From Dictyostelium discoideum (lineage: Eukaryota): 64,000 nt of DNA. The translations under genes were made by a program, and so were the position numbers. Each line of letters begins with the position of its first letter. The stretch's first letter is position 1. The notes beneath the pieces were generated by a model, which worked only from the letters and a program-made list of their open reading frames with translations, did no database searches and was not told where the DNA came from. The DNA lies in assembly GCA_000004695.1 (NCBI GenBank), contig CM000153.2:2464001-2528000 (forward strand). Direction: 5' to 3'. This document shows positions 3,019 through 34,100 of the stretch, in pieces.

Positions 3019-4467
3019 ATGACAAAAGAAAAAACAATTGTTGTTGAAGAAGATGAAGATGATGAAATAGAGTCAGTGAAAGGGCCAACAAGAAGTAGTC
3101 CATTTCATTTATTAGGAGCATTTTGTTTTATAACGGCTATTATAGCAGCAGTAGTTTGTTGTTTAGTATCGACATTGATAAAGGGGATTTCATCACAGAC
3201 TAGAGGATATATATTTTTTGCAACATTTGCAACCTTTATAGTGTTGTTATTCTTTTGTCTCTGCTGTACCTATTATTTGGGTGCATCAAGAGAGGCATGG
3301 GAGACACCACAACATACAGACGTTCGTTGGAATTTCACCAATATCGTGGCAATGGCAGGTTTGTTTGTAGAGTTTGTTCAGATTTGTTCATTTTCATTCA
3401 ACGAGTCGTTTGGGCCTTACATGGGTTCCTATATATTTAGATATTTCAATTACACAGCAACACCCTATCCAAAGGGGCCAGGCTTTGAAATCGCCTATTG
3501 GGTTATGTTTGTTGTGGCTTTCTCGCCCTATATCTTTGTAATTGCAATTCGTATCCTCATCTATATGTATGGCATTAAGAAGGGTGCAGACTCTGCCGCT
3601 GGTGTGGTCGAGCGTTATCAAGATAATATCTACTCTGTACTTTGGTTCCTTGTAAATACTTTATATTTCCCAGTCATCACAATGATGTTAACAGGTACAA
3701 GTTGTACCTTTTCAAAGAGTGATAGTGAAGAAGACATCATATCGTCACTTTCAAGTGCTGGTAGTTCTTTAATTAATTCAACCATTGGTAGTAGTAGTTC
3801 TTATTTACCAACATTGGATGCAAATAAAGATATCGTATGTCTTCAAGGCAAACATGTAGCATTTTTGGTTTGTACAATGATTGCATTGATCATCTATTAT
3901 CCTGCCGCCTCTTTTGCTCAATCTCAAACTCAAAACATCTCTGATATCAAATTTAAACCAAAGGTTGTGTTTGTCATGTTGCAAGGTAAATTCCTTTTGG
4001 GTGCACTTTGTGTAAGTTTTGGTAATAAACAATACGTTGTCTATCTCATAACGGTGGTGGTAATCAATTTCTTCTTTTTGGTTCTAAACGTTTGGTTCCA
4101 ACCTTGTCTATTACCTTGGGTTAATCGTCTACGTACTCTCTTCTTTAGTTTATCCGCTTGGGCTTCTTTGGTTCTTGTCATTAGTCATAGAATGTATTAT
4201 CCCGCTAAAGATGTTGATAATCGTGTACTACCTCTCATTCTTTTATTGGTTGGTTGGGGTATAATTATAGCGTTTTTAGTCGTTTTCTTTGCTGGTTACT
4301 CTAAATTCTTAAATAGAACTAGAGATTTATTCAATAAGAAATTTAAAAATCAACGTGGTACTAATATTCAAGCTAATCAACAACAACAACAACAACAACA
4401 AGCTAATCAACAACAACAACAACATCACCACCACCATCAACAACAACAACAACAACAACAACACCAA

Positions 4468-11145: not shown

Positions 11146-11233
11146 GCGTGTTTGATCGCTATCTGGGGATGCGTGTGGACTTCAAATCCATAGCTCGATA
11201 ACTCGAGAGTTGTTCGATTCAACCTGACGCGCG
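11146..11233 (+). tRNA. Selenocysteine tRNA (tRNA-Sec, anticodon TCA reading UGA)
   Basis: An 88-nt GC-rich island in AT-rich DNA: GCGTGTTTGATCGCTATCTGGGGATGCGTGTGGACTTCAAATCCATAGCTCGATAACTCGAGAGTTGTTCGATTCAACCTGACGCGCG. A 6-bp anticodon stem (TGTGGA/TCCATA) carries the loop CTTCAAA, giving anticodon UCA. The long variable arm is CTCGA-TAAC-TCGAG. The T-arm is GTTG-TTCGATT-CAAC. A 9-bp acceptor pairs to ...CTGACGCGC with discriminator G. It aligns block-by-block with vertebrate tRNA-Sec (GCCCGGATGATCC..TCTGGGG..GCTTCAAACCTGTAGC..AGTGGTTCAATTCCACC..CGGGCG). A TTTATTGTTTT run lies immediately 3', and an AT-rich TATA-like stretch lies about 25-30 nt upstream. Confidence 0.8.
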
Positions 11234-16976: not shown

Positions 16977-17016
16977 TTTAACAAATAAAAAAATATATAT
17001 ATTGTAAAGAAATTAA

Positions 17017-18785
<1,769 letters not shown>

Positions 18786-19005
18786 TCCAATTGATTTTTT
18801 TTTTTTTTATTGAAATTTTTATTTTTCACTTTTTTTTTTTATTTTTTTAATTTTTTTTTTTTTTTTTAATTAATAATGTTAAAAAAAAAAAAAAAAAAGG
18901 TTGTAATGTTGTTACTTTTAAGTAAATTTTTTGAGCGTTGTCATGTTTTTTAGTTTCTAAAACCTCATTTATTGAAACTCGAATGATTTTTTTTTTTTAA
19001 AAAAA

Positions 19006-19076
19006 TGGACCTTGAGGGGATCGATCCCTCCCTGCCAGTTTGCGGAACTAGAATGCAACCTATACATCAAAGGCCC
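19006..19076 (-). tRNA. tRNA-like element with alanine identity features (G3:U70, A73, anticodon CGC); atypical, and possibly a pseudogene
   Basis: A 71-nt GC-rich island on the minus strand: GGGCCTTTGATGTATAGGTTGCATTCTAGTTCCGCAAACTGGCAGGGAGGGATCGATCCCCTCAAGGTCCA. The 7-bp acceptor contains a G3:U70 wobble. The D-stem is ATGT/GCAT. The anticodon stem CTAGT/ACTGG carries the loop TCCGCAA, giving anticodon CGC. The T-arm is GAGGG-ATCGATC-CCCTC. The discriminator is A. A T7 run lies directly 3' on that strand. Deviations are C33, A54 and a weak A-box. Confidence 0.4.
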
Positions 19077-19194
19077 GTTGGGACATGAGCTGCCTTAAGA
19101 AAAATTTTAAATTTAATAGACATAATTTTAATTAAAAGAATATATAAATAAATGTTTTATTTATTTTTTATTATTGTTAACAATTTTTCTATTT

Positions 19195-19584
19195 TTAATT
19201 TTTAATTTTAAATTTTTCTATTTTTCTATTTTTATTTTTTAAATTTTTCTTGATATGACTAAAATATTCTTTATAAAATTGTTCAAGTTTTAATATCAAT
19301 TGTTCCCTTTCTATTTTCAATTGTTCCCTTTCTATTTTCAATTGTTCCCTTTCTATTTTCAATTGTTCCCTTTCTCTTTTCAATTGTTCCCTTTCTCTTT
19401 TCAATTGTTCAATTATTAATTCCAATTGATCGTTTTCTTGTTCCAATTGTTGCATTTCTTGTTCCAATATTTCCGGTATGTGATTTGAGTAAGTAACTAC
19501 TACTGTATTATTTGTAATATCTATTGTATTTTCAGCAAGGAAAAACAATATAATGAAATCTAAAATATAAAAAAAAAATTTCAA
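19195..19584 (-). CDS. Coiled-coil ORF built on 27-nt tandem repeats encoding (REQLKIERE)n; the gene model is uncertain
   Basis: 129-aa ORF. Its first codon is TTG, not ATG. An 'atattttag' motif a few codons into the ORF could be an acceptor, but the hydrophobic ILDFIILFFLA segment lies downstream of it. Nucleotide repeats of 'ttgttccctttctattttcaa' (4-5 copies, 19300-19400) lie on the plus strand. Confidence 0.3.
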   Translation of the reverse strand: MKFFFYILDFIILFFLAENTIDITNNTVVVTYSNHIPEILEQEMQQLEQENDQLELIIEQLKREREQLKREREQLKIEREQLKIEREQLKIEREQLILKLEQFYKEYFSHIKKNLKNKNRKIEKFKIKN

Positions 19585-19811
19585 ACTATTAAAATATTTT
19601 TACCCCTTTTATTTTTTATTTTTTATTTTTTTTTTTTTAAATTTTAAATTAATAAATTTAGTAATATCCATTTATATAGTAAATTTTAATAAAGGGTTTT
19701 TTAATTGAAACAGTTGTTTAAAAAGAAAAAATATTATAATAAAAAATATAATAGGAAAATATTAAAAAGAAATACATTTTTATTAATAAGAAATTAGTTT
19801 TATTTATTTTA

Positions 19812-19845
<34 letters not shown>

Positions 19846-19925
19846 AAATACTTTTTATTAATAAGGAATTTGTTTTTTTTTTTAAAATGATATTTCAAAA
19901 ACATAGTTTAAATTTATAAATAAAA

Positions 19926-22128
19926 ATGGGATATAAAAAAATAATTTATTATTTTATTCCATTAATTATTTTAAAAAAAAAAAAAAAGATGAAACAACTC
20001 TTTTTATTTATTTATTTAATATTTGTTTATTTAATTAATACTTCATTTTGTCAAGTTTATCCAAGTGGAGAAATTAAAGATATTCAAGGAAACTGTTTAA
20101 CTTCTCCAAATAATGTGGGTGAAATAATCACAATTGAAAATTGTTTTGATTCTCAATCAACAAATAAGTCACAACAACAATGGATATTCTCATTAGGTAA
20201 TAAAAACGTACCAACTCTTCAATCATTAAATGGATTATGTGCTGAAATTTCAAATAATAATTTAATTACAATTCAATGTACAACAATATATAAATCAAGT
20301 TCATTCTTATCAGTTCGTTATATTGAAGGTTCATTCATAATTAAATCAGTAATGTCTCAATCATGTTTACAAAGTCCTTTTAAAATTGGTGAATCACCTT
20401 TTTTCACATATAATTGTGATGCTGATGAAAATCAAAAGTTTTTTATTGATTTAACTTCTAAATCATTTTGTAAGTAAAAAAAATAGGAACTTTAAAATTT
20501 TTTTTTTTTTAAACATATTAATAATTTTTTATTATTATAAAAAACAGTACCTGTTTATAATCAAAAAAAAATTCCATTGACCATGTCATCAAATATAAAT
20601 TATTTCCTTGATAGTATGGAAGTAAATGCTCAATCTGGTGTATATAAAGGTTGGGAAAGAAAATTACCAGGTTTTTAGTAAAGTTTAATACTGATTGTAC
20701 TCTAACCATTTCTGATGATAATTCAGTTCTTTGGAAAAATGTTGATGAACCACCATCAGTTTGTAAACCTTCTGCTGTCTTAAAATTACATAATGATGGT
20801 AAATTATGTATATATAATCATGAAAATAATCCAGTTTCAAGTTGGTGCTCAGACTCTAAATCATTAGGTGGTCGTTATTACCATATGGTTCTTATGGAAA
20901 AAGTAAGTGAAAATAATAATTTTTTATTTTATTAATTTAAATTTAATTATAAACTTTAAAGTAAAAAAAATCAATTTATTTAATATTAATTACAATAATA
21001 TATATTAAGGATGGGGATTAGTTATTCAATCAGAAAATGGTGCAATGGTATGGGCAAAATGGGGTGAATCAATTTATCCAGATGCAAATTATAATTTAAT
21101 TCCTGGTAGCTACTTTGATGAAAATTATGGAATTAATACTAATAAATATATTACAAATGGAAGGTAAAGTATATTACATGTTCTAAGTTTAAATTTTCAT
21201 TAATTTTAAAAACAAAACTAATCATATTCTTTCATTTTTATTATTAAATTTTAAAAGAGATTTTTTATATTTTAATATAAAATATGGATTACAATATTTT
21301 ATTGGTAATCCAAATATGCAAGGAATACCTAATAGAGCTTGGAGTTCAATACCAGAACCAAGTTATGGTGAACGACCTGTTACATTAACATTATATATTA
21401 ATAATGATAATGTAACTATTCAAGGAAAAAAAATAATAGAAATAAAAACCCGAGACCTTACTGGATGGAAACACATTTTAATAGATGTTACATTATGGAA
21501 TACTCAAATACCATTGAAAGGTTGTAAATTCATTCATTTACCAATTTTAAATCAAAATGATTATGATAATTGGGGTTGGGTAATTAAAAATAAAGGTTTA
21601 AAGATTATATATGGTAATTTTAATTATCAACCTACAAAAATTAGCTCTTCAAATAATTTCTTAATTGGTAGTCCAACCAATCCATTAAATCCAACAAAAC
21701 AATTATATTCAGATATTTTAAAATTCGAATTACGTCCTGATGGTGTTTTAGAATTTAGAAATTTAATTACTGGTGAATTATTGTTCCCATACTCATATTC
21801 ATCTGTTTTAATACCAACTAGTGGTAATGGTACAAATCAATGTCCAAATAGAAAATATTTAGGTTATTGGGATAATGATAATAATTTAAGTATTAAAGTT
21901 GTTGGTTGTGAAAAGTATAGAGATACTTGTAATAAAACTGATTCAATCCAATGTAGAAGTAATCCACAGCTATGTAATGAAAATGATAATAACAAATGTT
22001 TTACTTATTTCACTTTCTTTCCAAATTGTTACCAATTTGGTCAAGCATCATTAGTAATTCAATATGGACTTCCTGAAATTATGTTTATTAGCTATGATAA
22101 TATTTTAGTTTCAAATTATTTGTATTAA
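19926..22128 (+). CDS. Secreted lectin-like protein: N-terminal ricin-B (QxW) domain followed by bulb-type (B-lectin) mannose-binding-like repeats; about 5 exons
   Basis: Exon 1 is 19926-~20472, donor GTAAGT. It holds a signal peptide (MKQLFLFIYLIFVYLINTSFC) and the motifs QQQWIF and ENQKFFI. Exon 2 is ~20549-20677 (PVYNQKKIPL...VYKGWERKLP). Exon 3 is ~20757-20905 (...SVLWKNVDEPPSVCKPSAVLKLHNDGKLCIYNHENNPVSSW..., donor GTAAGT). Exon 4 is ~21021-21167 (DGDLVIQSENGAMVWAKWGES...). The last exon is ~21278-22128 (...LKFELRPDGVLEFRNLITGELLFP...). The QxDGxLVxY-like motifs typical of B-lectins recur. Confidence 0.55.
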
Positions 22129-22259
22129 TTTTTTAAAACATGTTTAACATATGTATAAAAATAAAATAAGATAGATCTTTATAAAATAAAACTAATAGTT
22201 TTTGAATTAAAAAAAAAATAAAAAATAAATGATACTAAATAAAGATTTTATTATTATTA

Positions 22260-24180
22260 TTATTGTGGTGGTGGTGGTAAAATATCAACTGGAATAAAAG
22301 TTCTTGGAGGATTTGGAGGTACTCCAATACTTTTGAAATAACTTAATAATTGTCCTGGAATTTCTTTTAAGGTTTCTTGAGCTAAAGCATTAATATTACC
22401 TGAATATTTATTGAATGGTACAAATTGAACGATATCTCTTTTAGCTCTATTACCTTTGTAATCCACTAAACAACCATTATCACCATCTAATAAATTCATA
22501 TTTTCAAATGAACTTAAACCTACACCAACAATTACAACTGATAATGGTAAATTTGATGCTTGAACTAAACATTTTATAGTTTCATCCATATCACAAATTT
22601 CACCATCAGTTATGATTAATAAAACTGTATATTTTTGTTGATATGGTAAACGACTTTCTGAAGCTCTAGCAATTGCTTCTTGAATAACTGATGCAAAATT
22701 AGTTGGACCACTAAATGGAATCTTTGAGATGTTTCTATTATACATTTCTAAAACACCTGCTACACCAAAAGCTGATGGAACATTTGGATCCAATGAAAAT
22801 GGGAAACAATGTGATGTACGACCTTGATATTCACCACCAAATCCAAATACATCAATAAAACCATCAGAATCATATGATGATAAAACACCTAAATTATTTT
22901 AAAAAATTAAAATAAAAAAAATAAAAAAAAAAAGAAAATAAATTAGTAATTAAAAAAAAAAAAAAACTTTAAAATAATAAATAAAAAATACAAACTTCCA
23001 ACAGATGCAATTGAACGTGCATAAGCACTACCACCCTTTTCAAGATCATTATAATGAAGACCTGAAAATGAATTAACTGAACCATTACTACCTGTACAAT
23101 CGATTGCTGTCATTAATGAAATTTCACAACCACCTGCTAAAAATTCTAAAAAGGTATGAGTCTTTTCTAAACGAACTTTATAAAACTTTAAGATACCACT
23201 ATTTTTGTAACCAGATTTTGAGGTTTTCTTTGGATTAATTAATGGATATTCAATGACACCTCTAAGGATTGCATCGGTTGTTGTACGTGTGATACCAATT
23301 AAATCATGTGCACCAATACTATCATAATCATAAACTTCAATTAAAAGCTCTCTAAACATATCACCCCCATTAAATTTTTCCAATTCCATGTGTAATTCTG
23401 GCCAAAGTGGATTAACATTACTTTTAATAACAATACTTTGGAAAACTAATAATTGTTCACCATTTGGATTGGTTTTATAGATTTTATAATATGGATCTGA
23501 TGAAAATAAATCTTTTTTATCAAGACCAATACCTTCAGCACTTAAAAAGATATGATGATTGGTTTGACAAATCTCTTCTGCTGAAATTTCAATTTTACCA
23601 GTAACTTTACTATGATGAATTAAATCTGCAACAATTTTTCTACCAGGTCTTGATAAAATATTTGATAATGATGTTGTCTTTTTTTTATTTAAATAAATAA
23701 ATAAATAATAAAAATAAAAATTAGTAAATAATTTTATTATTATTATTGTTATTTTTTTTTTTATTTTTTTTTTTTTTTAATACTCACAAATTCACCAATT
23801 TTATCATTTTTATCTAAATCACCAAACAATGTGATTTCTTTATCAATATCCATAACAGTGAATGTTAAGGTTTGGATTTCTTCAAAATAATAATCGAGAG
23901 TAATGGTTTTTTTAAATTCTGGTGATAAATTGTTTTTGATTTTTTCAGTACAATCAACAAATTGGAAACCTCCTGGACCTCTCTTTTCACTAATAAAGAT
24001 TTGTGGATCAGATTTACTAACGATATCTAAAATAAATAAAAAATAAAAAAAAAGAATAAGTAAAACATGAAAGTTGGAAAAAAAAAAAAAAAAAAAAATT
24101 GTTTAATTACCTAAATTCTTTAAATGATGACATCTGAATCTTAATTCAACTCTTGAATTTGGTTTTGACGATGGTATCAT
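22260..24180 (-). CDS. Copine family protein (two C2 domains plus a vWA-like A domain), 5 exons
   Basis: Exon 1 is 24180-24111 (MIPSSKPNSRVELRFRCHHLKNL, donor GTAATT). Exon 2 is ~24037-23788 (DIVSKSDPQIFISEKRGPGG...FTVMDIDKE..., donor GTGAGT). Exon 3 is ~23693-22990 (C2B 'GLDKKDLFSSDPYYKIY', then 'GGCEISLMTAIDCTGSNGSVNSFSGLHY', donor GTTTGT). The last exon is ~22880-22260 (...LPLSVVIVGVGLSSFENMNLLDGD...RDIVQFVPFNKY...). The copine signatures 'DFTASNG...SLHY' and 'RDIVQFVPF' are present. Confidence 0.8.
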
Positions 24181-24251
24181 TTTTATTTATATATTTATAT
24201 ATTTATATGATGCAAGTATTTAATAATTGAAATACAACGAAAAGAATTTTT

Positions 24252-24289
<38 letters not shown>

Positions 24290-24605
24290 AAAAAAAAAAA
24301 AAAATCTACTTTGATCAGTTTTGTGTCAGTTGATTTGAAAAAAAAAAAAAGATATTTATAAAAATAAATTTTTTTTTTTTTTTTTTTTTTATATTTAATT
24401 TTATGCTAATTGGTGTTAGTTTAACGAAAATGTGATAAAAAATCTTAAGAAAAGATTGAATATATTACCAAAAGTTGAGATAAAATTGGGAAATAAAAAA
24501 AAAAAAATTAAAATTTTTTATCCAATGACCAAAAATAATTTTTTTAAAATATTAATTTTACATTTCATCACCAAACTTTTAATTATTAATTTAATGGTAA
24601 TAAAT

Positions 24606-24645
<40 letters not shown>

Positions 24646-24839
24646 TTATTTAATATTACACACATAGGTGAGTTCATATTTTTTTAAATTGTTGTGGTGG
24701 AGATAAATTTAAAGAATAAGAAATTGTTTTACTCTTTTATAAATTTTTTTTTTTTTTTTTTTAACCTAGAGCTTTTATACATTTATTACTTTTTTTTTTT
24801 TTTAAAAAAAGTTTAATTATTTAAATTAATTCTATTATT

Positions 24840-25259
24840 TTAAGACATAAAAATACCTGATGGTTTTTCACCTTTAGCTTGGAGTTGCATTGTTTGTTGG
24901 TGAACAACACATAATGTACAATAACATACTGCACAAGAATCACCACAAAAATTACCATCAATACCATGTTTTTCTCTAATTTGAGAACGAGTTAAGCAAG
25001 TAACTAATGGGAAAAAAAAAGTAGCCAAAAGGCAATCAGTAGCCTCACACTGACGATTATCCACAGTTGCTCTCTGTTGCATAATTTGTAGGCCCTTGAA
25101 ATGAATAATGAAAATTGAAAATAAATATTCATTCTTTGACAATTATTAATATTGTTTGGAAAAATAAATAAATAATTAACTTACTGGCCATAAATAACTG
25201 ATACAACAAACTCTACAATCAGATGTACAATCGCATAAACCGTGTTCCCAATTTGCCAT
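24840..25259 (-). CDS. PLAC8 / FW2.2-like cysteine-rich domain protein, 2 exons
   Basis: Exon 1 is 25259-25185 (MANWEHGLCDCTSDCRVCCISYLWP, donor GTAAGT). Exon 2 is ~25105-24840 (GLQIMQQRATVDNRQCEATDCLLATFFFPLVTCLTRSQIREKHGIDGNFCGDSCAVCYCTLCVVHQQTMQL...). The CCxxxxCP...cysteine pattern is typical of PLAC8. Confidence 0.7.
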
Positions 25260-25685
25260 TTTTTTATTTTTTTATTTATTTTATTTGTGTTTAGATAATG
25301 ATTAAAAATAAAAAAAAAAAACTTTCCTTTTATACTTAAAATTTTTTTTTTTTTTTTGTTTTTTTATTAAATTTTTATTTTTTTCTTTTCTTTTCTCAAA
25401 ATTGTTCTAGTTTTGATTTTCTAAAAAAAAAAATCTTTTTTTTGGGGTTTCAAAAAAAATTTTTGAAAAGGTAAGAATTTTTTTAAAAATTTGCTTTTTC
25501 AAGAAAAAAGGTATGAAAGTCTTTCTTATTGGATGCCAAAATTAAAAAAAAACATAATTAAAAAATAAAAAAAAAAAACAATTGCGATATTTTTAATTTC
25601 GAAACACAAAAAGTCGCTTTTTTTTTGGTTTATAAATTAAAAAAACACTTCAAATAAAAAATTCTAATAAAAGGAGGTGATTTGC

Positions 25686-25728
<43 letters not shown>

Positions 25729-25742
25729 TTTTTTTTAATTTT

Positions 25743-27196
25743 TTAATTATGGTTTTTAGAATTGATTAGATTTAATAATTCAGTGTCCCAATTTAATAGT
25801 TTTGATAGGTTGAGAACTGATTCTTGACAATCACCAATCATTTTGAAATCAAAATTTTTATTATTATTAAAATTGAAACCACCAAAACTATTTTCACCAA
25901 CAATTTGATTATTTATTAATAATCTTGGGATATTTTTAAAATGAGGAAAGAAATGAACCATTGATGCAATTGGTTGAACTTTTAAAGAGGTACCAATCAC
26001 AATTAGACAATCACATCTATTAATATCGTCAAGTATATTTTGATTAAATATTGGTGGTAAAGATTCACCAAAGAAAACAATATCAGGTTTAATTACAGCA
26101 TTATTACATTGAACCACTTTACAACGTGGTACAACACTTTTCAAAGGATCATTATTGAAAATTGAATCTTTAATATATTCTTGAGAATATTCTAAACCAC
26201 AATTTGTACATCTTGAAACTGCAAAAGAACCATGAGCTTCAATTAATTTATCCAATGGTATACCAGCTATTCTTTCAAGTGTGTCAGCATTTTGTGCATA
26301 ATTCCTTAACAGTAATCCTTTATCTGATAAAAGTTTAATAAAATAATGAACTGGTGTACATTTAAATTTACCCGATGGGTAGAGGTCTTTTGAAAGTTGA
26401 TAAAATGGTTCAGGATTGAATTTAAAATAATCAATATCAAACACTGCCTCTTTAAATGGTAATTTAAATTTTGAAACATTTTCATTATTATATAAACCAG
26501 TTTCAACTGATCTAAAATCTGGTATACCACTCGCAACTGAAATTCCAGCTCCTGTCAATACAATAATATTCTTACATTTATCATTTTTAATTAATTTTAT
26601 AAATTCTTTAATTTTATTATTTTCAATTTCAATTTCATTTTCAATTTTAATTTCATTTTTAATGATATTACTATTCTTTATAATATCTTTAATTGAATTA
26701 TCAATTGAGTCGAAATTTTTATTATATTTTAAATTTCTTTGATCATAATAAATGAATAATTTCATTACTTTGAATAAATTTTCAATATCTTTTAATTTTT
26801 TATTTATTAAATCACTATTTTTGGTGCATTTTTCAATCATTGTTGATTCTTTAATTAATTCATTACAATCATTACACCATAATGTTTTATCATCACCATG
26901 AAATATTTTAAAAATTGAATGATTGGAATGTAATTTACAATCTTCCATACAAACAACAATTCCACATTCTAAACAAATTAAAATATTATCTTGACTTGAA
27001 CATTTATAACAATTTGGTATTGTTACTTTTTTTTTTTTTTTTTTTTTTTTTGTTAATTAACAAAAATTTTATTGATTTTTAAATTAAAATATTAATAATA
27101 TAACTTACTATTTTCATTATCATATAATTGAATATCAATTGATTCATAATTTATATTACAATTTTCAATATGTACACATTGTGTTTGTTTTGACAT
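25743..27196 (-). CDS. Sir2-family NAD-dependent protein deacetylase (sirtuin) with an N-terminal UBP-type zinc finger, 2 exons
   Basis: Exon 1 is 27196-27109 (MSKQTQCVHIENCNINYESIDIQLYDNEN, donor GTAAGT). Exon 2 is ~27025-25743. It opens with 'ITIPNCYKCSSQDNILICLECGIVVCMEDCKLHSNHSIFKIFHGDDKTLWCNDC', a zf-UBP pattern (C..C...CL.CG..C...H...H...W.C..C). The sirtuin core follows: 'GAGISVASGIPDFRS', 'HGSFAVSRCTNCGLEY' and the Zn-ribbon cysteines. Confidence 0.8.
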
Positions 27197-27548
27197 TTCC
27201 AATTTTATTTGTTTATATGTTCAATCAATAATAATAAAAAAAATAAAAAAATAAAAAAAAATAAAAAAAAATAAAAAAAAATAAAAAAAAATAAAAAAAA
27301 AAAAAGATTTCTCATTTTTTGACCATTTTCAAATGCCTGGCTGATGTCAAATTAAAGAAGTTAAACCAAAGCAATTTGTGGTAATTGATCGCAAAAACGA
27401 TAGACATGTCTATTGCAAAAATCATGATCCAAATCACCATAAAGTTGATCAAGATTCTTCTCTCTCTTAGCGTAGGTTAATCATGCTCTTGGTTGGGCTC
27501 TCACAGCTAATACACTGGAAAACATAATTTAAGAATATTCATCATTTT

Positions 27549-27920
27549 TTGAGAGATTTTGCTTAGGGTAATTAAAAAAAAGATATTATATTTTAATAAT
27601 ATTTATAACAATAATATCAGTAATTAATAAAATTTAAATAAAAAATAATTAAAAAATGATAAGATTTAAGAATTCTTATTAATAAATAATAATTTATTTC
27701 TCATTTAATAATAAAAAGTTAATATATTTATCATTTTATGAGATTTTATGCTAGGGTAATTTCTCACTTTTTATAACATAATATTATAATTTAATAATAT
27801 TTTAAAACAAAATAATACAAATTATTATAAAAATTAATACATTTATTAGGTTGTAGAAAATTTTACTATTGTAATATCTCATTTTTTAAAATATAATACT
27901 ATAATTTAAAAATATACAAA
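27549..27920. repeat. Three degenerate tandem units (~150-185 bp) of an AT-rich element
   Basis: Each unit begins with a conserved head: 'ttttgagagattttgcttagggtaatt' (27549), 'ttttatgagattttatgctagggtaatttctcac' (~27733), 'ttattaggttgtagaaaattttactattgtaatatctcat' (~27845). A similar AT-rich body follows each head ('ataatattataatttaataatatttta...'). No ORF is present. Confidence 0.5.
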
Positions 27921-28143
27921 CCAATTAATAAATAAAATATCAAATATTATTAATTTATTATTAAAATATGATAAAAAATAATCAAATTGTAATAAATGTT
28001 TAAAATAATAAAAAAAAAATCAATAAAATATAAGAATGTTAATTTAAATTAAACAATTTTTTTCTTATTTTATTATAAATATTATTAACAAAAAATGTTC
28101 CTAATTTTTTTTTTTTTTTTTTTCCAAAAAGTAATAAACATGT

Positions 28144-28428
28144 GTGACCACCAAGGATATTATGAATGCTCAAAGAAGTTTGATTTTAACAGGGGATTTA
28201 ACTGGAGACCTCGAAAATTTCCCAGTTATTAAAAAAGAATGTACTGAAGACTGCAAAAAAATGATGATTGAAATTGTTGAAAAAACATTAAGAGATTTTA
28301 CTACCATAGCCACAAATTACTTTAAAGATGCTAAAATTGGAATAAAAAGAAAGGATGAATGTGATGGTGTTAACTATTTCTTTATTGTTGTGGAGAGCTT
28401 GATGATGAAGAAGATCATGAATTTTTAG
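28144..28428 (+). CDS. Small hypothetical ORF; the model is uncertain
   Basis: The track start is GTG. The first ATG in frame is ~28162 (MNAQRSLILTGDLTGDLENFPVIKKECTEDCKKMMIEIVEKTLRDFTTIATNYFKDAKIGIKRKDEC...). After a frame change at ~28390, another frame continues as ...CGELDDEEDHEFLEDVEKAMNVKRINGKVVHLNNQENDNKLESSTNK. This suggests a small intron or a frameshift. Confidence 0.25.
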   Translation: MTTKDIMNAQRSLILTGDLTGDLENFPVIKKECTEDCKKMMIEIVEKTLRDFTTIATNYFKDAKIGIKRKDECDGVNYFFIVVESLMMKKIMNF

Positions 28429-29101
28429 AAGACGTAGAAAAAGCGATGAATGTTAAAAGAATAAATGGAAAGGTAGTTCATTTAAATAACCAAGAGAATG
28501 ATAACAAATTAGAATCTTCAACCAATAAATAAATAAATTTATATCTCTTATATAAGAGATGTAGTTTATTTTTTTTCTTTAAATTTTTAATTTTTAATTT
28601 TTTTTTTTTTTCTTTTTATTTTTATTTTTTTTCTTTTTTAATTTCTTGCACCTCTTTTACGTGCAAAGTTACCAGGTTTGGGTATATATCGTCGAGCTTC
28701 TTGTGCAGTTGCATAAGTTCTAATTGGCTCTTGTCTTTCTCTGTTTCTTTGCAATCGTCTTCTTTCACTTGTTTTAGTCAAATTTCTATTTTTATTTTAT
28801 TTTTAATTTTTTTATTTTTAATTTTTTTTTCTTTATTCCAATGCCACCCAAATTAAAAAAAAAAAAAAAATAAAAATTTAATAAAATAAAATTTTTAAAA
28901 AAAAAAAAAAAAGTTATAACTTTGATAACTTATTTTATTTTTATTATTATTATTATCATCTATTTATTGTTGTTTTTTTTTTTTTATTTTTTTTTTATTA
29001 TTATTATTATTATCATCTATTTATTGTTGTTTTTTTTTAATATTTTATTTTCTTTATTTTCCTTAATTTTGAGTTTAACCACCTGCGGGTAAGATTTAAA
29101 A

Positions 29102-29135
<34 letters not shown>

Positions 29136-29485
29136 CATTTTTTTTTTTTTTTTTTTTTTTTTATAAAATTTTTTTTTTTTATAAAATTTTTTAATATTAA
29201 AAAATAAAAACCAAACAGATTCGCATATACACCCAATCAATCAATAATATCTTTCACTTTTTTTTTTTTTTTTTTAATTATTATTATTATTATTATTATT
29301 TTTTTTTAATGGGGTTTGGTCTAAAAAAAAAAAAAAAATTTTGTTCCAATCTGTTAAAAAAAAAAAAAAAAAATAATACAAAGAAATTTTAAAAAAAAAG
29401 AAAAAAAAAAAATAAAAATAAAGAATAATATATTTATATATAAAAAAAACAAAATTTTCTATTACTACACATAATAATAATAATA

Positions 29486-29566
29486 ATATAAATATAAATA
29501 TAAATATAAATATAAATATAAATATAAATATAAATATAAATATAAATATAAATATAAATATACATA
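29486..29566. repeat. (ATAAAT)n hexanucleotide microsatellite (~14 units) immediately upstream of the NDR-kinase start codon
   Basis: Read directly: 'aatataaatataaatataaat...'. Confidence 0.9.
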
Positions 29567-29583
29567 TACATATACTGTAATTT

Positions 29584-31453
29584 ATGAGTCGTAAAGAAAA
29601 TTTAAATAGAAGTAGTAGTAGTAATAGTATAGAATTTAATAGAGATAGAGATAGAGATAGTAGTAATATCAGTAATAGTAGTAATATAAATTGTAATAAT
29701 AGTAGTCAAACTCCACCTATTCCACAACATAATAGTTTAAGTGGTAGGTCAAAGCATTCGTCACCAATACATAGTTTAAAGAAAAAAGGTTCATTAGTTA
29801 GACAAGGTATTGAAGATTTATTTAGTTCACTTAGTGTGGATACACATTCAAGTAGTAATAGTAATAATAATAGTAGTAGTAATAATAATAATAATAATAA
29901 TAACCATAATATTAATAGTTCATCGGAATCATCAACTCCTACAACACCAAGATCATCTTTTACACCTCAAGTTACAATGAATAGTAATCAAAGTAGTGGT
30001 AATAATTCACCTCAGTTATCAAGTAGATCTAGTTCACAATCAACTTTAATACCCTCAAATGAACCAACTGTATGTAGTAAATTAATAACCCACCCCACTT
30101 TTATAATTCTCCATATATTTATTTCCTATTACCATATAATTAACTAACAAATAAAATTTATTATTGTTATTTTTATTATCACTAAAAGAAATCATTGGCA
30201 AAATTTTTTTTATTAGCACAACAAGTTGATTATGTTGGTGATTCAAGTTCAACTTTATTACCAGTTGAAAATTTAGGATTATTAAGTATACAATGGAAAA
30301 CATATTTCACAATTGGATTGAATTCAACTACTACTGGATATGACGTTTTAAAATATATATCAATTAAAACTAATAGAGATTTAAAATCATTAACATTGGC
30401 AGATTCAGATGGTAAAATCATTGATAATGATTATATATTAACTCAACAACGTTGTAAAAAATTTGTTGTAGTTGAAGATTTAAATATTGATGATTTAAAA
30501 ATGAAACAATTAAATCATTTACAACAACTACCACCACCATCACAACAACAATTACCACCACCACAATCACACCAACAACAATTATTGCAACAACAATTAC
30601 AACAAAGATTACAAAATCAAAATCAAAATCAAAATAATAATTCAAATTCAAATTCAAATTCAAGCTCAAGTTCATCATGTTCAACACCACAATCTATAGT
30701 ATCACAACAACAAAAATTACATCAAATGCTATTAAATCAACAACAAATTCAATCATCACAAAGTACGACACCAACTAATTCATCACAAAAATCATCACCA
30801 AATAAAGTGACTGATCATCAACATGTTGAGAATTGTAATTTTACATCACCATCACCATCATCACCCTCTTCACCATCATCACCATCGAGTGGTATGATTT
30901 TGGATGGATTCAATTTGGATGGAAATGGTGGTAGACCTACACCATTAATTATAACACCATCTTCTCCATCATCTATGAGAAAGAATCCACCTGCAATTCC
31001 ACCAAGATCACCTTCAAGTTTTAGTGGTGGTAGTCCTTTAAATAATATTTTATTAAATAATACTGAATTAATTTCAGAACCTGTAACAACAACAACAACA
31101 ACAACAACCACCACTTCATCCTCATCATCATTATCAGTAACAACAACAATTTCAAATCCAAATTATACACAAAATTTACCAACAACACCATTATCTAATA
31201 GTAGTAGTAATAATAACAATAATGGATCATTTATAACATTACAAGATACTACAAATAATAAATCAATTATAAATAATAATAGAGAATCACCACCAGAATC
31301 ACCAATGGGTAGTAGAAAATCATCAGGTAGTTCAAATACAACATCATCTACTACTAATACCACTACACCATCATCATCATCATTAACAACATCATCAGGT
31401 AAAGAAAGTAGAGATAGAGATAGTAAAGATAAAGAAAAAGATTTAATTGGTAG

Positions 31454-31511
<58 letters not shown>

Positions 31512-33197
31512 GTTGAAAAAGAAAAAGAGAATTATTGTAAATTTTTAGACGCTGTAAATAGTTTTAATATGGTTGGTAATAATGGTGTATTATTTAATGG
31601 TGAAGCCAATAGGAATATGAAGTTAACCAATGCACAAGAGGAGAAATGTAAGATTTTAGATAATTATTTCAATCATTATTATCAAGAGTTATTTAAATAT
31701 CTTCATCAAAGACATAGAAGAATTAAGACCATTGAGGATTTCACTGTTGAATCTAGAATGGATAGACAGGGTGCAGAACAATGGATGAAGAAACAATTTG
31801 AAAAGGAGACTAATTTCCTTAGGAATAAAAGAGCCGGTATGAAATTAAAAGAATTTAAAATACTAACTCAAATTGGTAAAGGCGGGTTTGGTCAAGTGTT
31901 TTTAGCACAGAAAAAAGATACCGGTGATATTGTAACATTAAAGAGATTAAAGAAACAGACAGTGGAATGGGCCAATCAAAGAAATCAAGTCTCTCAAGAA
32001 AAGAGTGTAATGCTGGTAGATAATAAATGGATCACCAAATTGTTGTATAGTTTTCAAGATGCAAATTATCTCTACTTGGCTATGGAGTATCATTGTGGTG
32101 GCGATTTTAGAGCATTGTTAAATAATTTAGGTACACTCTCTGAGGATGAGGCCAGATTCTACATGATTGAAATGATAGAGGCAATCTCTTCACTTCACGA
32201 GATGGGTATAGTTCATAGGGATTGCAAGCCTTCCAATTTCGTATTGGACAAGTTGGGTCATATCAAGTTAATCGATTTCGGTCTATCCAAGGAAGGTATT
32301 GAAAAGAGAAATGGTTGGAATAAGGCTACGATGAATGAATTGAGAAAGAGTTGTCTAAGTGCCTCTTTCACTTCGAATACAATGAAAGCAGCCTCTGCCT
32401 ATCTATCAGGTGGCACCAATGTTATGGCATATCGTCGTCCAATTGCACATTCTGCTGTTGGCTCACCGGAATATATGTCACCCGAGATTGTCAATGATCA
32501 AGGCTACGATATGACTTGTGACTATTGGTCGTTGGGTTGTGTTTTCGTCGAGATGCTTTGTGGCTTCAATCCATTCTGTGCAGATACACCAAATGACGTT
32601 TTCATCAATATTCTACGTTGGAAGGAAACTTTGGATTGGCCATTATTCACTCAAGAACTTTCGGTGGAGGCAGCTGATCTACTAAAGAATATGTTGATGG
32701 AGCAACCCCATCGTTTAGGTGGTAAAGGGAAACAAGACTTTAAGAACCATCCTTTCTTTAAAAATCATAATTGGGATGAAATCGTAAATGGTCAAGTGAA
32801 ACCACCATTCGTACCAAAGGTTGAGAGTGATATAGATACCTCTTACTTTGAAGATGCCGTTAATAATGATTCCTCAACTTGGGATATCGATGATAACGAT
32901 TGTGGGGGTTATGGTAGTGGTGGTTATGGTGGTGGTGGTCCTCAAGCTAGAGATCCTTTCAATAATTTAAAAATACCCTTTTTCACCTATAGAAAATCTT
33001 CCGCCCTTAGTTTAAGTATGAGTTCAGAAATTGCTCAAAGTTTAAATTATAACAATGGTAATACTTATTCAAACTATACTAGTAATAATAATAATAATAA
33101 TCTTCATAATAATCAAATTCACGAAAGTGATGATGAAAATTATGATATCAATAATATAAATAATAATAATAATAATAATAATAATTTCATTAACTAA
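29584..33197 (+). CDS. NDR/LATS-family serine/threonine protein kinase (AGC group) with a long S/N/Q/T-rich N-terminal region, 2 exons
   Basis: Exon 1 is 29584-30069 (MSRKENLNRSSSSN...PSNEPT, donor GTATGT). Exon 2 is 30189-33197 (KSLAKFFLLAQQVDYVGDSS...). The kinase domain shows GKGGFGQVFLAQKKDTGDIVTLKRLKK, HRDCKPSNFVLD, DFGLS, and the NDR-type insert between subdomains VII and VIII before GSPEYMSPE. An AGC C-terminal 'FFKNHNWDEI...FVPKVESDIDTSYFED' follows. The track's second ORF begins at TTG, inside exon 2. Confidence 0.85.
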
Positions 33198-33269
33198 AAT
33201 TTTAACACAAAACTCATTCGTCTCAAAATAACTTTTTCACATACACATCCCATATAAAATCATAAATAT

Positions 33270-33330
33270 TCATTCATTCATTCATTCATTCATTCATTCA
33301 TTCATTCATTCATTCATTCATTCATTCATT
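33270..33330. repeat. (TCAT)n tetranucleotide microsatellite (~15 units) in the NDR-kinase 3' flank
   Basis: Read directly: 'cattcattcattcatt...'. Confidence 0.9.
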
Positions 33331-33419
33331 TTACATACACTCTCATATAATTTATAATCACAAATAATTCATCATCCAAAATTATTATTTTTTTTTTTTT
33401 TTTTTTTTTTCAAACTGTA

Positions 33420-34100
33420 TTGTTATTGTGTTGCTTCTATTTTTTTTTAAAAAAAAAATTGAAAAAAAAAAAAATATATATATATAAAATAATTAATTTA
33501 TATTGTTTTCAAATAGAAAATGGTAATAGTGGATATAATCATTTTCACTTTGATTCAATAGAACAACAAAATCAATATCAACTTTCATTGTTATCACCAA
33601 ATTCATCCGATAAATCGATAGGCATGATTCAATATATTAAAAAGTTTAGATATCAACAATTACAACAACAATTACAACAACACTTTCAACAACAAAATCA
33701 TTTACAACAATTAAAATCAAATCATAGAAAATCACCAACTAGACAATTAATTTCTTCACTTTTATATAAAGGTGATGATAAAACTTCAATTTTACAAAAT
33801 TATTCCTCACAATCACAACCATCTCTAGCTAATCAATTACAATCATCATCATCATCACCATCGCCTTCTTTACAGTCACAATCACAATCACCCTCTTTAC
33901 AATCATCTTCAAAATCAACTCCAAATCTATCCTCTTCTTTATTAGAAAATCCTGTAAAAGAAGAATTAGAATATAAAAACCAAACTGAAAATGAAGTTGA
34001 AATTAAAAAAGAAAACGAAAGTGAGGAAATTCAATCATTAAGAGATCAATTAAAAGAAATTATAATTTATGAAGATTATGACCAAGAATATAGTATATAG
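33420..34100 (+). CDS. Q/S-rich low-complexity ORF; possibly an exon of a gene with an undetermined start
   Basis: 226-aa ORF whose first codon is TTG. The first in-frame ATG is ~33621. A possible acceptor 'tcaaatag' lies at ~33508. An acidic C-terminus ends in a stop at 34100. No recognisable domain was found. Confidence 0.3.
   Translation: MLLCCFYFFLKKKLKKKKIYIYKIINLYCFQIENGNSGYNHFHFDSIEQQNQYQLSLLSPNSSDKSIGMIQYIKKFRYQQLQQQLQQHFQQQNHLQQLKSNHRKSPTRQLISSLLYKGDDKTSILQNYSSQSQPSLANQLQSSSSSPSPSLQSQSQSPSLQSSSKSTPNLSSSLLENPVKEELEYKNQTENEVEIKKENESEEIQSLRDQLKEIIIYEDYDQEYSI

What the first reader, a model, noticed from the sequence alone, without database searches (positions are those of the whole stretch)
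25743..27196. Sirtuin with an N-terminal UBP-type zinc finger
The two-exon model places a zf-UBP (C..C...CLxCG...C...H...H...W.C..C) directly ahead of a canonical Sir2 catalytic core. zf-UBP modules normally bind free ubiquitin C-termini; they are known from HDAC6 and the USPs. Fusion to a class-III deacetylase is an unusual domain combination, and it suggests ubiquitin-linked regulation of this sirtuin.
Basis: partly seen in the sequence, partly recalled or inferred. Interest (0 to 1): 0.5.

Follow-up and report, generated by a model that had tools for sequence, protein, structure and literature searches.

The report
Dictyostelium sir2C: sirtuin with eroded ZnF-UBP
This is the already annotated Dictyostelium discoideum gene sir2C, a SIRT2-type deacetylase whose N-terminal zinc finger really derives from the ubiquitin-binding ZnF-UBP domain but has lost the residues that grip ubiquitin's tail, so it is a correct but largely ordinary observation.

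Summary
A two-exon minus-strand gene (27196-27109, 27025-25743; 83-nt GT..AG intron) encodes 456 aa, not 430. It is 100% identical to D. discoideum Sir2C (XP_638409.1 / Q54P49).

Residues 165-450 are a SIRT2-like catalytic core (Pfam SIR2 6.6e-54; human SIRT2 1e-75). Residues 7-88 are a ZnF-UBP-derived zinc finger. On its own it falls below Pfam's threshold, and B-box scores slightly higher. Four deeper tests all give ZnF-UBP and never B-box:
- a Sir2C-only profile against PDB and against 1.84 billion proteins;
- hhalign to the paralogue Sir2A (97%, E 7e-11);
- an AF2 model searched with Foldseek;
- an intron position shared with Sir2A.

The fusion is not rare. PF02148+PF02146 is precomputed for SIRT2 homologues across Amoebozoa and chytrids. 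A reversed SIR2+2xZnF-UBP arrangement occurs in three further proteins, the only named one from a dinoflagellate transcriptome.

The "ubiquitin-linked regulation" reading is not supported for this paralogue. All five Sir2C-clade proteins replace the HDAC6 residues needed for ubiquitin binding (R1155→E57, Y1184→N81, W1143→L45, Y1189→L86) but keep the zinc ligands. Sir2A-type proteins keep the pocket.

Best reading: an active SIRT2-type deacetylase with a ZnF-UBP that no longer reads ubiquitin tails and now serves as a scaffold or interaction module. Low novelty.

The parts
27109..27196 (-). sir2C exon 1 (codons 1-29 plus the first base of codon 30). It encodes the C7-x-H9 pair of the ZnF-UBP.
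   Evidence: The start matches the published Sir2C cDNA forward primer atgtcaaaacaaacacaa (PMC6475656). Against another D. discoideum assembly it shows only 2 substitutions in 88 nt.
27026..27108 (-). Intron, 83 nt, GTAAGT...AG, phase 1. It lies inside the ZnF-UBP, between C-x-H and the first CxxC.
   Evidence: splicing here restores a single 456-codon ORF; the splice sites are conserved in the second strain and the indels are confined to the intron's A-run; the intron is at the homologous position in Sir2C of P. violaceum and T. lacteum, and in Sir2A.
25743..27025 (-). sir2C exon 2, including the TAA stop at 25743-25745.
   Evidence: The published reverse primer ttaattatggtttttagaatt matches the 3' end of the CDS.
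26850..27178 (-). Degenerate ZnF-UBP domain, residues 7-88 (spans the intron). Proposed zinc ligands: C7, H9, C80, C83 / C35, C38, C55, H62 / C47, C50, H65 plus H72 or C59. Positions that form the ubiquitin pocket in HDAC6 are replaced: L45, E57, D58, N81, L86 (W79 retained).
   Evidence: The full-length AF2 model of the exact protein gives pLDDT 80-89 over residues 31-90.
26622..26825 (-). Long predicted helix (residues 97-128) followed by an Asn/Ile/Lys/Glu-rich low-confidence linker (129-164).
   Evidence: helix H97-128; pLDDT below 50 at residues 128-134 and 149-162. A 4-residue indel between strains falls here.
25764..26621 (-). SIRT2-type Sir2 catalytic core, residues 165-450: GAGISvasGIPDFRS, (A)QN(A)D, catalytic H294 (26232-26234), zinc-ribbon C302/C305/C331/C336.
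   Evidence: Pfam SIR2 6.6e-54 over residues 188-381. The best solved relative is human SIRT2 at 1.2e-75, with the motifs aligned. In 35 homologues G188, A189, G190, S192, R201, Q274, N275, D277, H294 and the four Cys are invariant. dN/dS is 0.07 against the second strain.

Best explanation
The locus is the D. discoideum gene sir2C (DDB_G0284795). It encodes an NAD+-dependent lysine deacetylase of the SIRT2/Hst2 class, and every catalytic and NAD-binding motif tested is intact.

The N-terminus is a three-zinc ZnF-UBP domain inherited from an amoebozoan ZnF-UBP-SIRT2 ancestor. That ancestor duplicated in Dictyostelia into Sir2A and Sir2C. Sir2A keeps an HDAC6-like ZnF-UBP with a complete pocket for the free ubiquitin C-terminus. 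Sir2C sits on a long branch. It kept the zinc-binding scaffold but replaced the pocket residues.

The Sir2C finger therefore most likely no longer reads unanchored ubiquitin tails. It probably serves as a structural or protein-interaction/targeting module. It joins the catalytic core through a long helix and a flexible low-complexity linker. This would be analogous to the non-ubiquitin-binding ZnF-UBPs of Ubp8/USP22, USP39/Sad1 and USP33.

Shown here: gene identity, gene model, Sir2 core, ZnF-UBP homology, pocket substitutions, conserved zinc ligands, paralogy.

Inferred: loss of ubiquitin binding, zinc stoichiometry and the replacement function.
For: Identity:
- The spliced product equals XP_638409.1 / Q54P49 sir2C.
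- The published Sir2C cDNA primers match both CDS ends.

Sir2 core:
- Pfam SIR2 6.6e-54 and human SIRT2 1.2e-75.
- Catalytic residues are invariant in 35 homologues.

ZnF-UBP homology:
- A profile of Sir2A plus Sir2C N-termini hits the HDAC6 ZnF-UBP at 1.4e-26.
- A Sir2C-only profile hits Ubp8, USP33, HDAC6, USP20, USP39 and USP49, and no B-box.
- hhalign of Sir2C-type against Sir2A-type N-termini: probability 97%, E 7e-11.
- 14 of 16 family N-termini hit PF02148. Only the two D. discoideum Sir2C sequences hit B-box.
- The exhaustive search of 1.84 billion proteins gave 8 non-family hits. Five are bona fide zf-UBP domains lying under the match. The other three are spurious or unrelated.
- AF2 pLDDT is 79.6 for the domain model and 81.4 for the full-length model. 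The top 38 Foldseek PDB hits are all ZnF-UBP.

Pocket loss: the table, read against the HDAC6 R1155A/Y1184A result in PMC3268394.

Paralogy:
- In an NJ tree the Sir2C clade (94% bootstrap) sits beside the dictyostelid Sir2A clade (87%), inside amoebozoan ZnF-UBP-SIRT2.
- The intron position is shared.
Against: - On its own, the window's protein does not reach Pfam's gathering score for zf-UBP, and B-box scores marginally higher.
- The AF2 model was built with an alignment that contains canonical ZnF-UBP sequences, so the Foldseek result is not fully independent.
- Loss of ubiquitin binding is inferred from sequence only. W79 (equivalent to W1182) is retained, and an altered pocket could bind ubiquitin or another tail in a different way.
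- One of the histidine ligands of the third zinc site is deleted or shifted, so zinc stoichiometry is uncertain.
- The catalytic motif reads AQNAD instead of TQNID in D. discoideum. No activity data for Sir2C were found.
Confidence: 0.85

Rival explanations
1. One reading: the N-terminal finger is a working ZnF-UBP that binds free ubiquitin C-termini. Sir2C activity or localisation would then be regulated by unanchored ubiquitin, as with HDAC6.
For: - The domain is homologous to the HDAC6-type ZnF-UBP.
- W79 (equivalent to HDAC6 W1182) is retained.
- The paralogue Sir2A and the other amoebozoan and chytrid homologues keep a complete pocket, so the ancestral function was probably ubiquitin-tail binding.
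Against: - E57 replaces R1155 and N81 replaces Y1184. The R1155A/Y1184A double mutant abolishes ubiquitin binding in HDAC6.
- The equivalents of Y1156, W1143 and Y1189 are D58, L45 and L86.
- The same five positions are lost in all five Sir2C-clade proteins.
- A charge reversal (R to E) at the residue that pairs with ubiquitin Gly75/Gly76 is hard to reconcile with binding a C-terminal carboxylate.
Confidence: 0.1
2. The finger is a B-box (TRIM-type) zinc finger, not a ZnF-UBP.
For: - Pfam zf-B_box scores slightly above zf-UBP for the D. discoideum sequence: 18.1-22.4 bits against 15.6-20.1.
- The spacing C35-x2-C38-x8-C47-x2-C50-x4-C55-x3-C59-x2-H62-x2-H65 resembles the B-box1 pattern (recalled from memory).
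Against: - It is below the B-box gathering score of 24.1.
- C59, which creates the resemblance, is absent from the other Sir2C orthologues, and none of them hits B-box.
- There are no B-box chains among the PDB profile hits.
- The first B-box in Foldseek is at E = 2.7, after 38 ZnF-UBP hits.
- None of the hits in the 1.84-billion-protein search is a B-box.
- The flanking C7-x-H9 and W79-C80-x2-C83 are ZnF-UBP features.
Confidence: 0.03
3. Exon 1 is not part of the mature protein (a mis-modelled 5' end). The real product would start within exon 2 and carry only a partial finger.
For: - The longest unspliced ORF (25743-26948) starts at M56.
- No RNA-seq data could be examined.
Against: - Sir2C was PCR-amplified from cDNA with a forward primer on the exon-1 ATG and a reverse primer on the stop, and it gave a product of the predicted size.
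- Exon 1 and its splice sites are conserved between strains, and the differences concentrate in the intron.
- The intron position is conserved in orthologues and in Sir2A.
- Exon 1 supplies the C-x-H pair that is conserved family-wide.
- Starting at M56 would cut the finger in half.
Confidence: 0.02

Closest known systems
D. discoideum Sir2A and the amoebozoan/chytrid ZnF-UBP-SIRT2 proteins (PF02148+PF02146)
   Same: Same architecture: N-terminal ZnF-UBP, low-complexity linker, SIRT2-type core. The intron is at the same position inside the finger. The catalytic cores are 55-60% identical. The two are sister clades in the tree.
   Different: Sir2A-type fingers pass Pfam's threshold (best E 9e-22). 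They keep the equivalents of W1143, R1155, Y1184 and Y1189. Sir2C has L45, E57, N81 and L86, a 7-residue deletion in the His-rich helix, and a shorter linker.
HDAC6 (class IIb deacetylase with a C-terminal ZnF-UBP)
   Same: A lysine deacetylase fused to a ZnF-UBP. Among solved structures, HDAC6's finger is the closest relative of the amoebozoan sirtuin fingers (95.8 bits, against 61 for USP49 and 44 for USP33). The zinc-ligand spacing C-x2-C-x8-C-x2-C-x4-C-x6-H is identical.
   Different: The catalytic fold is unrelated (Zn-dependent arginase-like rather than an NAD-dependent Rossmann fold). In HDAC6 the finger is C-terminal and binds unanchored ubiquitin (PMC3268394). Sir2C lacks the binding residues.
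ZnF-UBPs that do not bind ubiquitin: yeast Ubp8/USP22 (SAGA DUB module), USP39/Sad1, USP33/USP20
   Same: These are the top PDB hits of the Sir2C-only profile (Ubp8 1.3e-3, USP33 1.7e-3). They keep the ZnF-UBP scaffold. From my own knowledge of the literature, not tested here, they lack or do not use the ubiquitin-tail pocket and serve as assembly or interaction modules.
   Different: They are attached to USP protease (or pseudo-protease) domains, not to a sirtuin. No partner of the Sir2C finger is known.
Human SIRT2 / yeast Hst2
   Same: Closest solved catalytic core (1.2e-75). The protein is distributed across the whole cell rather than being nuclear (PMC6475656).
   Different: SIRT2 and Hst2 have no ZnF-UBP. 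Sir2C has C-x2-C / C-x4-C zinc-ribbon spacing and an AQNAD motif in place of TQNID.

Membership tests
Sirtuin (Sir2) family, class I, SIRT2/Hst2 subgroup | Match to the Sir2 family profile above the curated threshold | tested here: met
   PF02146 scores 183 bits against a gathering score of 24, E 6.6e-54, over residues 188-381 and the full length of the model.
Sirtuin (Sir2) family, class I, SIRT2/Hst2 subgroup | NAD-binding and catalytic motifs: GAGxSxxxGIPDFR, QNxD, catalytic His, Cys4 zinc ribbon | tested here: met
   G188-A-G-I-S...G196-I-P-D-F-R201, Q274-N275-A-D277, H294, and C302/C305/C331/C336 all align to human SIRT2 and are invariant in 35 homologues. D. discoideum has AQNAD instead of TQNID.
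Sirtuin (Sir2) family, class I, SIRT2/Hst2 subgroup | Closest to SIRT2 rather than to other classes | tested here: met
   In PDB, SIRT2 scores 1e-75, better than SIRT3 (1e-66), SIRT1 (2e-56) and Hst2 (1e-52). The non-amoebozoan database hits are named SIRT2 or Hst2.
Sirtuin (Sir2) family, class I, SIRT2/Hst2 subgroup | NAD+-dependent deacylase activity | not testable with these tools
   No enzymatic data for Sir2C were found. PMC6475656 reports only localisation and an overexpression phenotype.
ZnF-UBP (Pfam PF02148, zf-UBP) | Profile match above Pfam's gathering score | tested here: not met
   The score is 15.6 bits for the full-length protein and 19.5-20.1 bits for the N-terminus alone, against a gathering score of 22.7. 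The precomputed Pfam annotation for the Sir2C cluster lists only PF02146.
ZnF-UBP (Pfam PF02148, zf-UBP) | Demonstrable homology to bona fide ZnF-UBP domains | tested here: met
   hhalign to the Sir2A-type finger gives probability 97%, E 7e-11. A Sir2C-only profile places only ZnF-UBP chains in the top 16 PDB hits. The same profile hits zf-UBP domains of USPs and other sirtuins at E 1e-10 to 2e-5 among 1.84 billion proteins.
ZnF-UBP (Pfam PF02148, zf-UBP) | ZnF-UBP fold | tested here: met
   The AF2 model has pLDDT 79.6 and beta strands at residues 44-47, 53-55, 67-70, 77-80 and 85-88, followed by a C-terminal helix. Foldseek ranks 1-38 are all ZnF-UBP (HDAC6 2.6e-4, USP49, USP39, Ubp8, USP16, USP5). 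Caveat: the alignment used for the model includes canonical fingers.
ZnF-UBP (Pfam PF02148, zf-UBP) | Cys/His ligands for the zinc sites | tested here: inconclusive
   C7, C35, C38, C47, C50, C55, C80 and C83 are invariant, and H9, H62 and H65 nearly so, across 16 sequences. The equivalent of H1164 falls in a deletion. H72 or C59 could substitute. The assignment of ligands to sites follows my memory of the HDAC6 structure. Zinc content was not measured.
ZnF-UBP (Pfam PF02148, zf-UBP) | Pocket for the free ubiquitin C-terminus (HDAC6 R1155, Y1156, W1143, W1182, Y1184, Y1189) | tested here: not met
   The equivalents are E57, D58, L45, W79, N81 and L86, so five of six are replaced, including both residues of the binding-dead R1155A/Y1184A mutant. 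This feature defines the ubiquitin-binding subclass, not the fold.
B-box zinc finger (PF00643) | Profile match above threshold, conserved across orthologues | tested here: not met
   The score is 18.1-22.4 bits against a gathering score of 24.1. Only the two D. discoideum sequences of 16 hit B-box. There is no B-box among the PDB profile hits. The first Foldseek B-box is at E 2.7.

The most novel reading that the evidence does not exclude
ZnF-UBP-SIRT2 enzymes of Amoebozoa and chytrids (Sir2A type) may be functional analogues of HDAC6, that is, deacetylases recruited by unanchored ubiquitin tails. Sir2C would then be a neofunctionalised paralogue. Its remodelled, acidic pocket (E57/D58) would recognise a different ligand, such as another protein's tail, or would let Sir2C act as a ubiquitin-blind partner or competitor of Sir2A. 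Nothing in my evidence excludes this. No paper in the searchable library discusses the fusion.
Probability: 0.25. Interest if true: 0.55.

Novelty: already known. Interest (0 to 1): 0.28.

Why it matters
The practical value is annotation. Sir2C's N-terminus should be labelled a degenerate ZnF-UBP rather than a B-box or an unannotated region, and it should not be assumed to bind ubiquitin.

More broadly, two unrelated deacetylase families (HDAC6 and SIRT2-type sirtuins) carry the same ZnF-UBP subtype. Sirtuin plus ZnF-UBP fusions also occur in at least two arrangements in distant eukaryotes. This points to a recurrent selective link between deacetylation and sensing of free ubiquitin ends.

Dictyostelium has an intact copy (Sir2A) and an eroded copy (Sir2C) in a genetically tractable organism. 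That gives a natural pair for testing what the finger contributes to a sirtuin.

Tried and rejected
- A word-indexed homologue search with the N-terminal 128 aa returned nothing, not even the 97%-identical strain protein. This was a wasted search, probably a word or composition filter.
I used the 97%-identical P0001 N-terminus instead, and later the exact protein P0121.
- A single-sequence phmmer search of the finger against PDB gave only noise. Profiles were needed.
- B-box assignment: considered and rejected.
- dN/dS between two D. discoideum assemblies was meant to test constraint on the finger. There are only 4 substitutions in 95 codons (ratio 0.59), so it is uninformative. The Sir2 core gives 0.07.
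- Literature searches for a described sirtuin/ZnF-UBP fusion found nothing relevant. The Acanthamoeba Sir2 paper concerns a class IV YEATS fusion.
- The neighbouring genes (PLAC8, copine, protein kinase, ricin-B lectin) give no functional clue, as expected for a eukaryote.
- An upstream ORF with an in-frame TGA was checked for a SECIS element. None was found.
- I could not read model coordinates, so zinc-site geometry and pocket shape in the AF2 models were not measured.
Full report
**What is at the coordinates**

The interval 25743-27196 is a complete minus-strand coding sequence in very AT-rich (Dictyostelium-like) DNA.
- The longest unspliced ORF (25743-26948) starts at an internal Met.
- Upstream, an ATG at 27196 opens an 88-nt exon that ends at a GTAAGT donor (27108).
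- An AG acceptor at 27026 restores the frame.
- The product is identical, residue for residue, to RefSeq XP_638409.1 / UniRef100_Q54P49, 'NAD-dependent deacetylase sir2C' of D. discoideum.

The primers published for amplifying the whole Sir2C (DDB_G0284795) coding sequence from cDNA are atgtcaaaacaaacacaa and ttaattatggtttttagaatt. They match the two ends of this CDS, and the Flag-tagged product had the predicted size (PMC6475656).

**The intron**

RNA-seq could not be examined, but three lines support the junction.
- In a second D. discoideum assembly (97% protein identity), exon 1, the donor and the acceptor are conserved, and the indels fall inside the intron's A-run.
- tblastn of orthologues onto their own loci puts an intron at the homologous spot (LYDNxx|[IV]) in Sir2C of Polysphondylium violaceum and Tieghemostelium lacteum. 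It is also at the aligned position of the paralogue Sir2A.
- Exon 1 contributes a C-x-H pair (C7, H9) that is conserved across the whole family.

**The Sir2 core**

- Pfam SIR2 matches residues 188-381 at 6.6e-54, full model length.
- The best solved relatives are human SIRT2 (1.2e-75), then SIRT3, SIRT1 and Hst2.
- The GAGIS...GIPDFR loop, Q274/N275/D277, catalytic H294 and the four zinc-ribbon cysteines are invariant in an alignment of 35 homologues.
- Between the two D. discoideum assemblies the core has dN/dS 0.07.
- The full-length AF2 model of the exact protein has mean pLDDT 81.4 and pTM 0.84. It shows a confident finger (pLDDT 80-89 over residues 31-90), a long helix at 97-128, a low-confidence linker (below 50 at 128-134 and 149-162), and a confident Rossmann plus zinc-ribbon core.

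**Is the N-terminal finger a ZnF-UBP?**

Pfam alone leaves this ambiguous. zf-UBP scores 15.6-20.1 bits (gathering score 22.7) and zf-B_box scores 18.1-22.4 bits (gathering score 24.1). Five further tests settle it.

1. *Family-wide Pfam scan.* Of 16 N-termini from Sir2C- and Sir2A-type proteins, 14 hit zf-UBP (best E 9e-22). Only the two D. discoideum Sir2C sequences hit B-box. The B-box resemblance depends on C59, which the other orthologues lack.
2. *Profile-profile comparison.* Sir2C-type against Sir2A-type N-termini gives probability 97%, E 7e-11 over 95 columns.
3. *PDB profile search.* A profile built only from Sir2C-clade sequences places only ZnF-UBP chains in its top 16 PDB hits: Ubp8, USP33, HDAC6, USP20, USP39 and USP49. 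The combined profile hits the HDAC6 finger at 1.4e-26.
4. *Exhaustive search.* The Sir2C-only profile against 1.84 billion representative proteins gives 11 hits at E ≤ 1e-3.
   - Three are Sir2C proteins.
   - Five are proteins in which a bona fide zf-UBP (42-122 bits in Pfam) lies exactly under the match.
   - One is an Asn-rich repeat artefact.
   - Two are unrelated, weak hits.
   - None is a B-box.
5. *Structure prediction.* An AF2 model of the finger (pLDDT 79.6) gives Foldseek ranks 1-38 that are all ZnF-UBP. The first B-box is at E = 2.7. The alignment behind the model contains canonical fingers, so this last test is supportive rather than independent.

**Is the combination unusual?**

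No.
- The precomputed Pfam pair PF02148+PF02146 is attached to SIRT2-type proteins from six dictyostelid genera, from Cavostelium, Planoprotostelium and Pelomyxa, and from the chytrids Rhizoclosmatium and Podochytrium. Several unnamed metagenome and transcriptome proteins carry it too.
- The exhaustive search also found three proteins with the opposite order, SIR2 followed by two zf-UBPs. One comes from the dinoflagellate Durinskia dybowskii transcriptome.
- An NJ tree of the catalytic cores puts a Sir2C clade (94% bootstrap, long branch) beside the dictyostelid Sir2A clade (87%), inside the amoebozoan ZnF-UBP-SIRT2 group.

Together with the shared intron, this indicates that Sir2C arose by duplication of a ZnF-UBP-SIRT2 gene in the dictyostelid lineage.

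**Does the finger still read ubiquitin?**

In HDAC6, R1155 and Y1156 are the gatekeepers that close over ubiquitin's Gly-Gly. The R1155A/Y1184A mutant is folded but no longer binds ubiquitin (PMC3268394). The role of W1143, W1182 and Y1189 as further pocket residues is from my memory of the HDAC6 structures, not from a paper read here. I aligned 20 sirtuin fingers to HDAC6.

| HDAC6 pocket residue | Sir2A-type, other amoebozoan and chytrid sequences | D. discoideum Sir2C | The five Sir2C-clade proteins overall |
|---|---|---|---|
| W1143 | W | L45 | L/I/V |
| R1155 | R (one K) | E57 | E/N/D |
| Y1156 | Y or H (also D, N) | D58 | D/H |
| W1182 | W or F | W79 (kept) | W/N/H |
| Y1184 | Y | N81 | N/L/F |
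| Y1189 | Y (one I) | L86 | L/P/N/T |

- All five Sir2C-clade proteins keep the cysteine scaffold C35, C38, C47, C50, C55, C80 and C83, plus H62.
- Keeping the zinc scaffold across the dictyostelid radiation while losing the pocket is the signature of a domain retained for another purpose.
- I infer that Sir2C does not bind free ubiquitin tails in the canonical way. No binding experiment exists to confirm this.
- The third zinc site is uncertain. The equivalent of H1164 lies in a 7-residue deletion, and H72 or C59 may substitute. The assignment of ligands to sites follows my recollection of the HDAC6 structure, not a measurement.

**Most likely mechanism**

Sir2C is an active SIRT2-class NAD+-dependent deacetylase found throughout the cell (PMC6475656). 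The same paper reports that overexpressing Sir2A or Sir2C slightly delays development.

The N-terminal finger is a ubiquitin-blind ZnF-UBP. It probably acts as a docking or structural module, connected by a helix and a flexible linker. From general knowledge, the ZnF-UBPs of Ubp8/USP22, USP39/Sad1 and USP33 behave this way, and they are the closest PDB hits of the Sir2C-only profile.

Its finger is most similar to HDAC6's among solved structures.

**Novelty and score**

The gene, its model and its name are in RefSeq and UniProt. It has been cloned and overexpressed. The architecture is machine-annotated for many homologues. I found no paper in the searchable library that discusses the sirtuin/ZnF-UBP fusion, so the biology is unexplored, but the feature itself is already known.

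The small increments here are:
- the sub-threshold finger of Sir2C is shown to be a ZnF-UBP and not a B-box;
- its ubiquitin pocket has eroded across the whole clade;
- sirtuin/ZnF-UBP fusions recur in two arrangements.

Interest is low to moderate.

Noticed in passing
window 11146-11232 (+): A selenocysteine tRNA gene (Rfam RF01852 tRNA-Sec, 64.2 bits against a gathering score of 47, E 9e-11). ARAGORN reported no tRNA anywhere in the window.
   Followed up: no
window 27340-27525 (-), within a GC-richer island at 27300-27560 (34% GC against about 12-18% in the flanks): About 100 bp upstream of the sir2C ATG lies a short ORF with an in-frame TGA: MFSSVLAVRAQPRA*LTYAKREKNLDQLYGDLDHDFCNRHVYRFCDQLPQIALV*. 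A permissive Rfam scan found no SECIS-like element, so it is probably not a selenoprotein gene. Its nature is unexplained.
   Followed up: partly
window ~27290-28770, compared with L001 ~3880-3960: About 1.45 kb between sir2C and the upstream kinase-side sequence has no counterpart in another assembly labelled D. discoideum (GCA_054859355.1). There, homology resumes almost directly (window 30400-28772 aligns to L001 2251-3882 at 83% identity). This is an insertion/deletion polymorphism that includes the GC island and a 94-aa ORF (28144-28428) with no Pfam hit.
   Followed up: partly
window 26282-26296 (-), Sir2C residues 273-277: D. discoideum Sir2C has AQNAD where human SIRT2 and all other homologues examined have TQNID. 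From my own knowledge, the Ile lines the nicotinamide/acyl pocket in other sirtuins, so activity or nicotinamide sensitivity may differ.
   Followed up: no
P0185, P0186, P0187 (no loci fetched): A second sirtuin/ZnF-UBP architecture: an N-terminal SIR2 domain followed by two C-terminal zf-UBP domains, in proteins of 680-830 aa. One is from the dinoflagellate Durinskia dybowskii transcriptome.
   Followed up: partly
P0157 (Rhizoclosmatium), P0165 (Podochytrium): Chytrid fungal SIRT2 homologues carry an N-terminal ZnF-UBP with an intact ubiquitin pocket, so the architecture spans Amoebozoa and early-diverging fungi. In the NJ tree their cores group with fungal Hst2. The fusion is therefore either ancient in Amorphea or arose twice.
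   Followed up: partly
P0124 (Cavenderia fasciculata, 987 aa): This protein is annotated as 6-phosphogluconate dehydrogenase but carries zf-UBP + SIR2 + 6PGDH domains. It is most likely two adjacent genes merged in the gene model.
   Followed up: no
window 17000-34100: Neighbouring ORFs: ricin-B lectin (19926-20477, +), copine C-terminal part (22260-22793, -), PLAC8 family (24840-25142, -), and a protein kinase (30195-33197, +). PLAC8 and copine lie downstream of sir2C in the same order in the second assembly, and a long unannotated gene lies upstream where the kinase sits in the window.
   Followed up: partly
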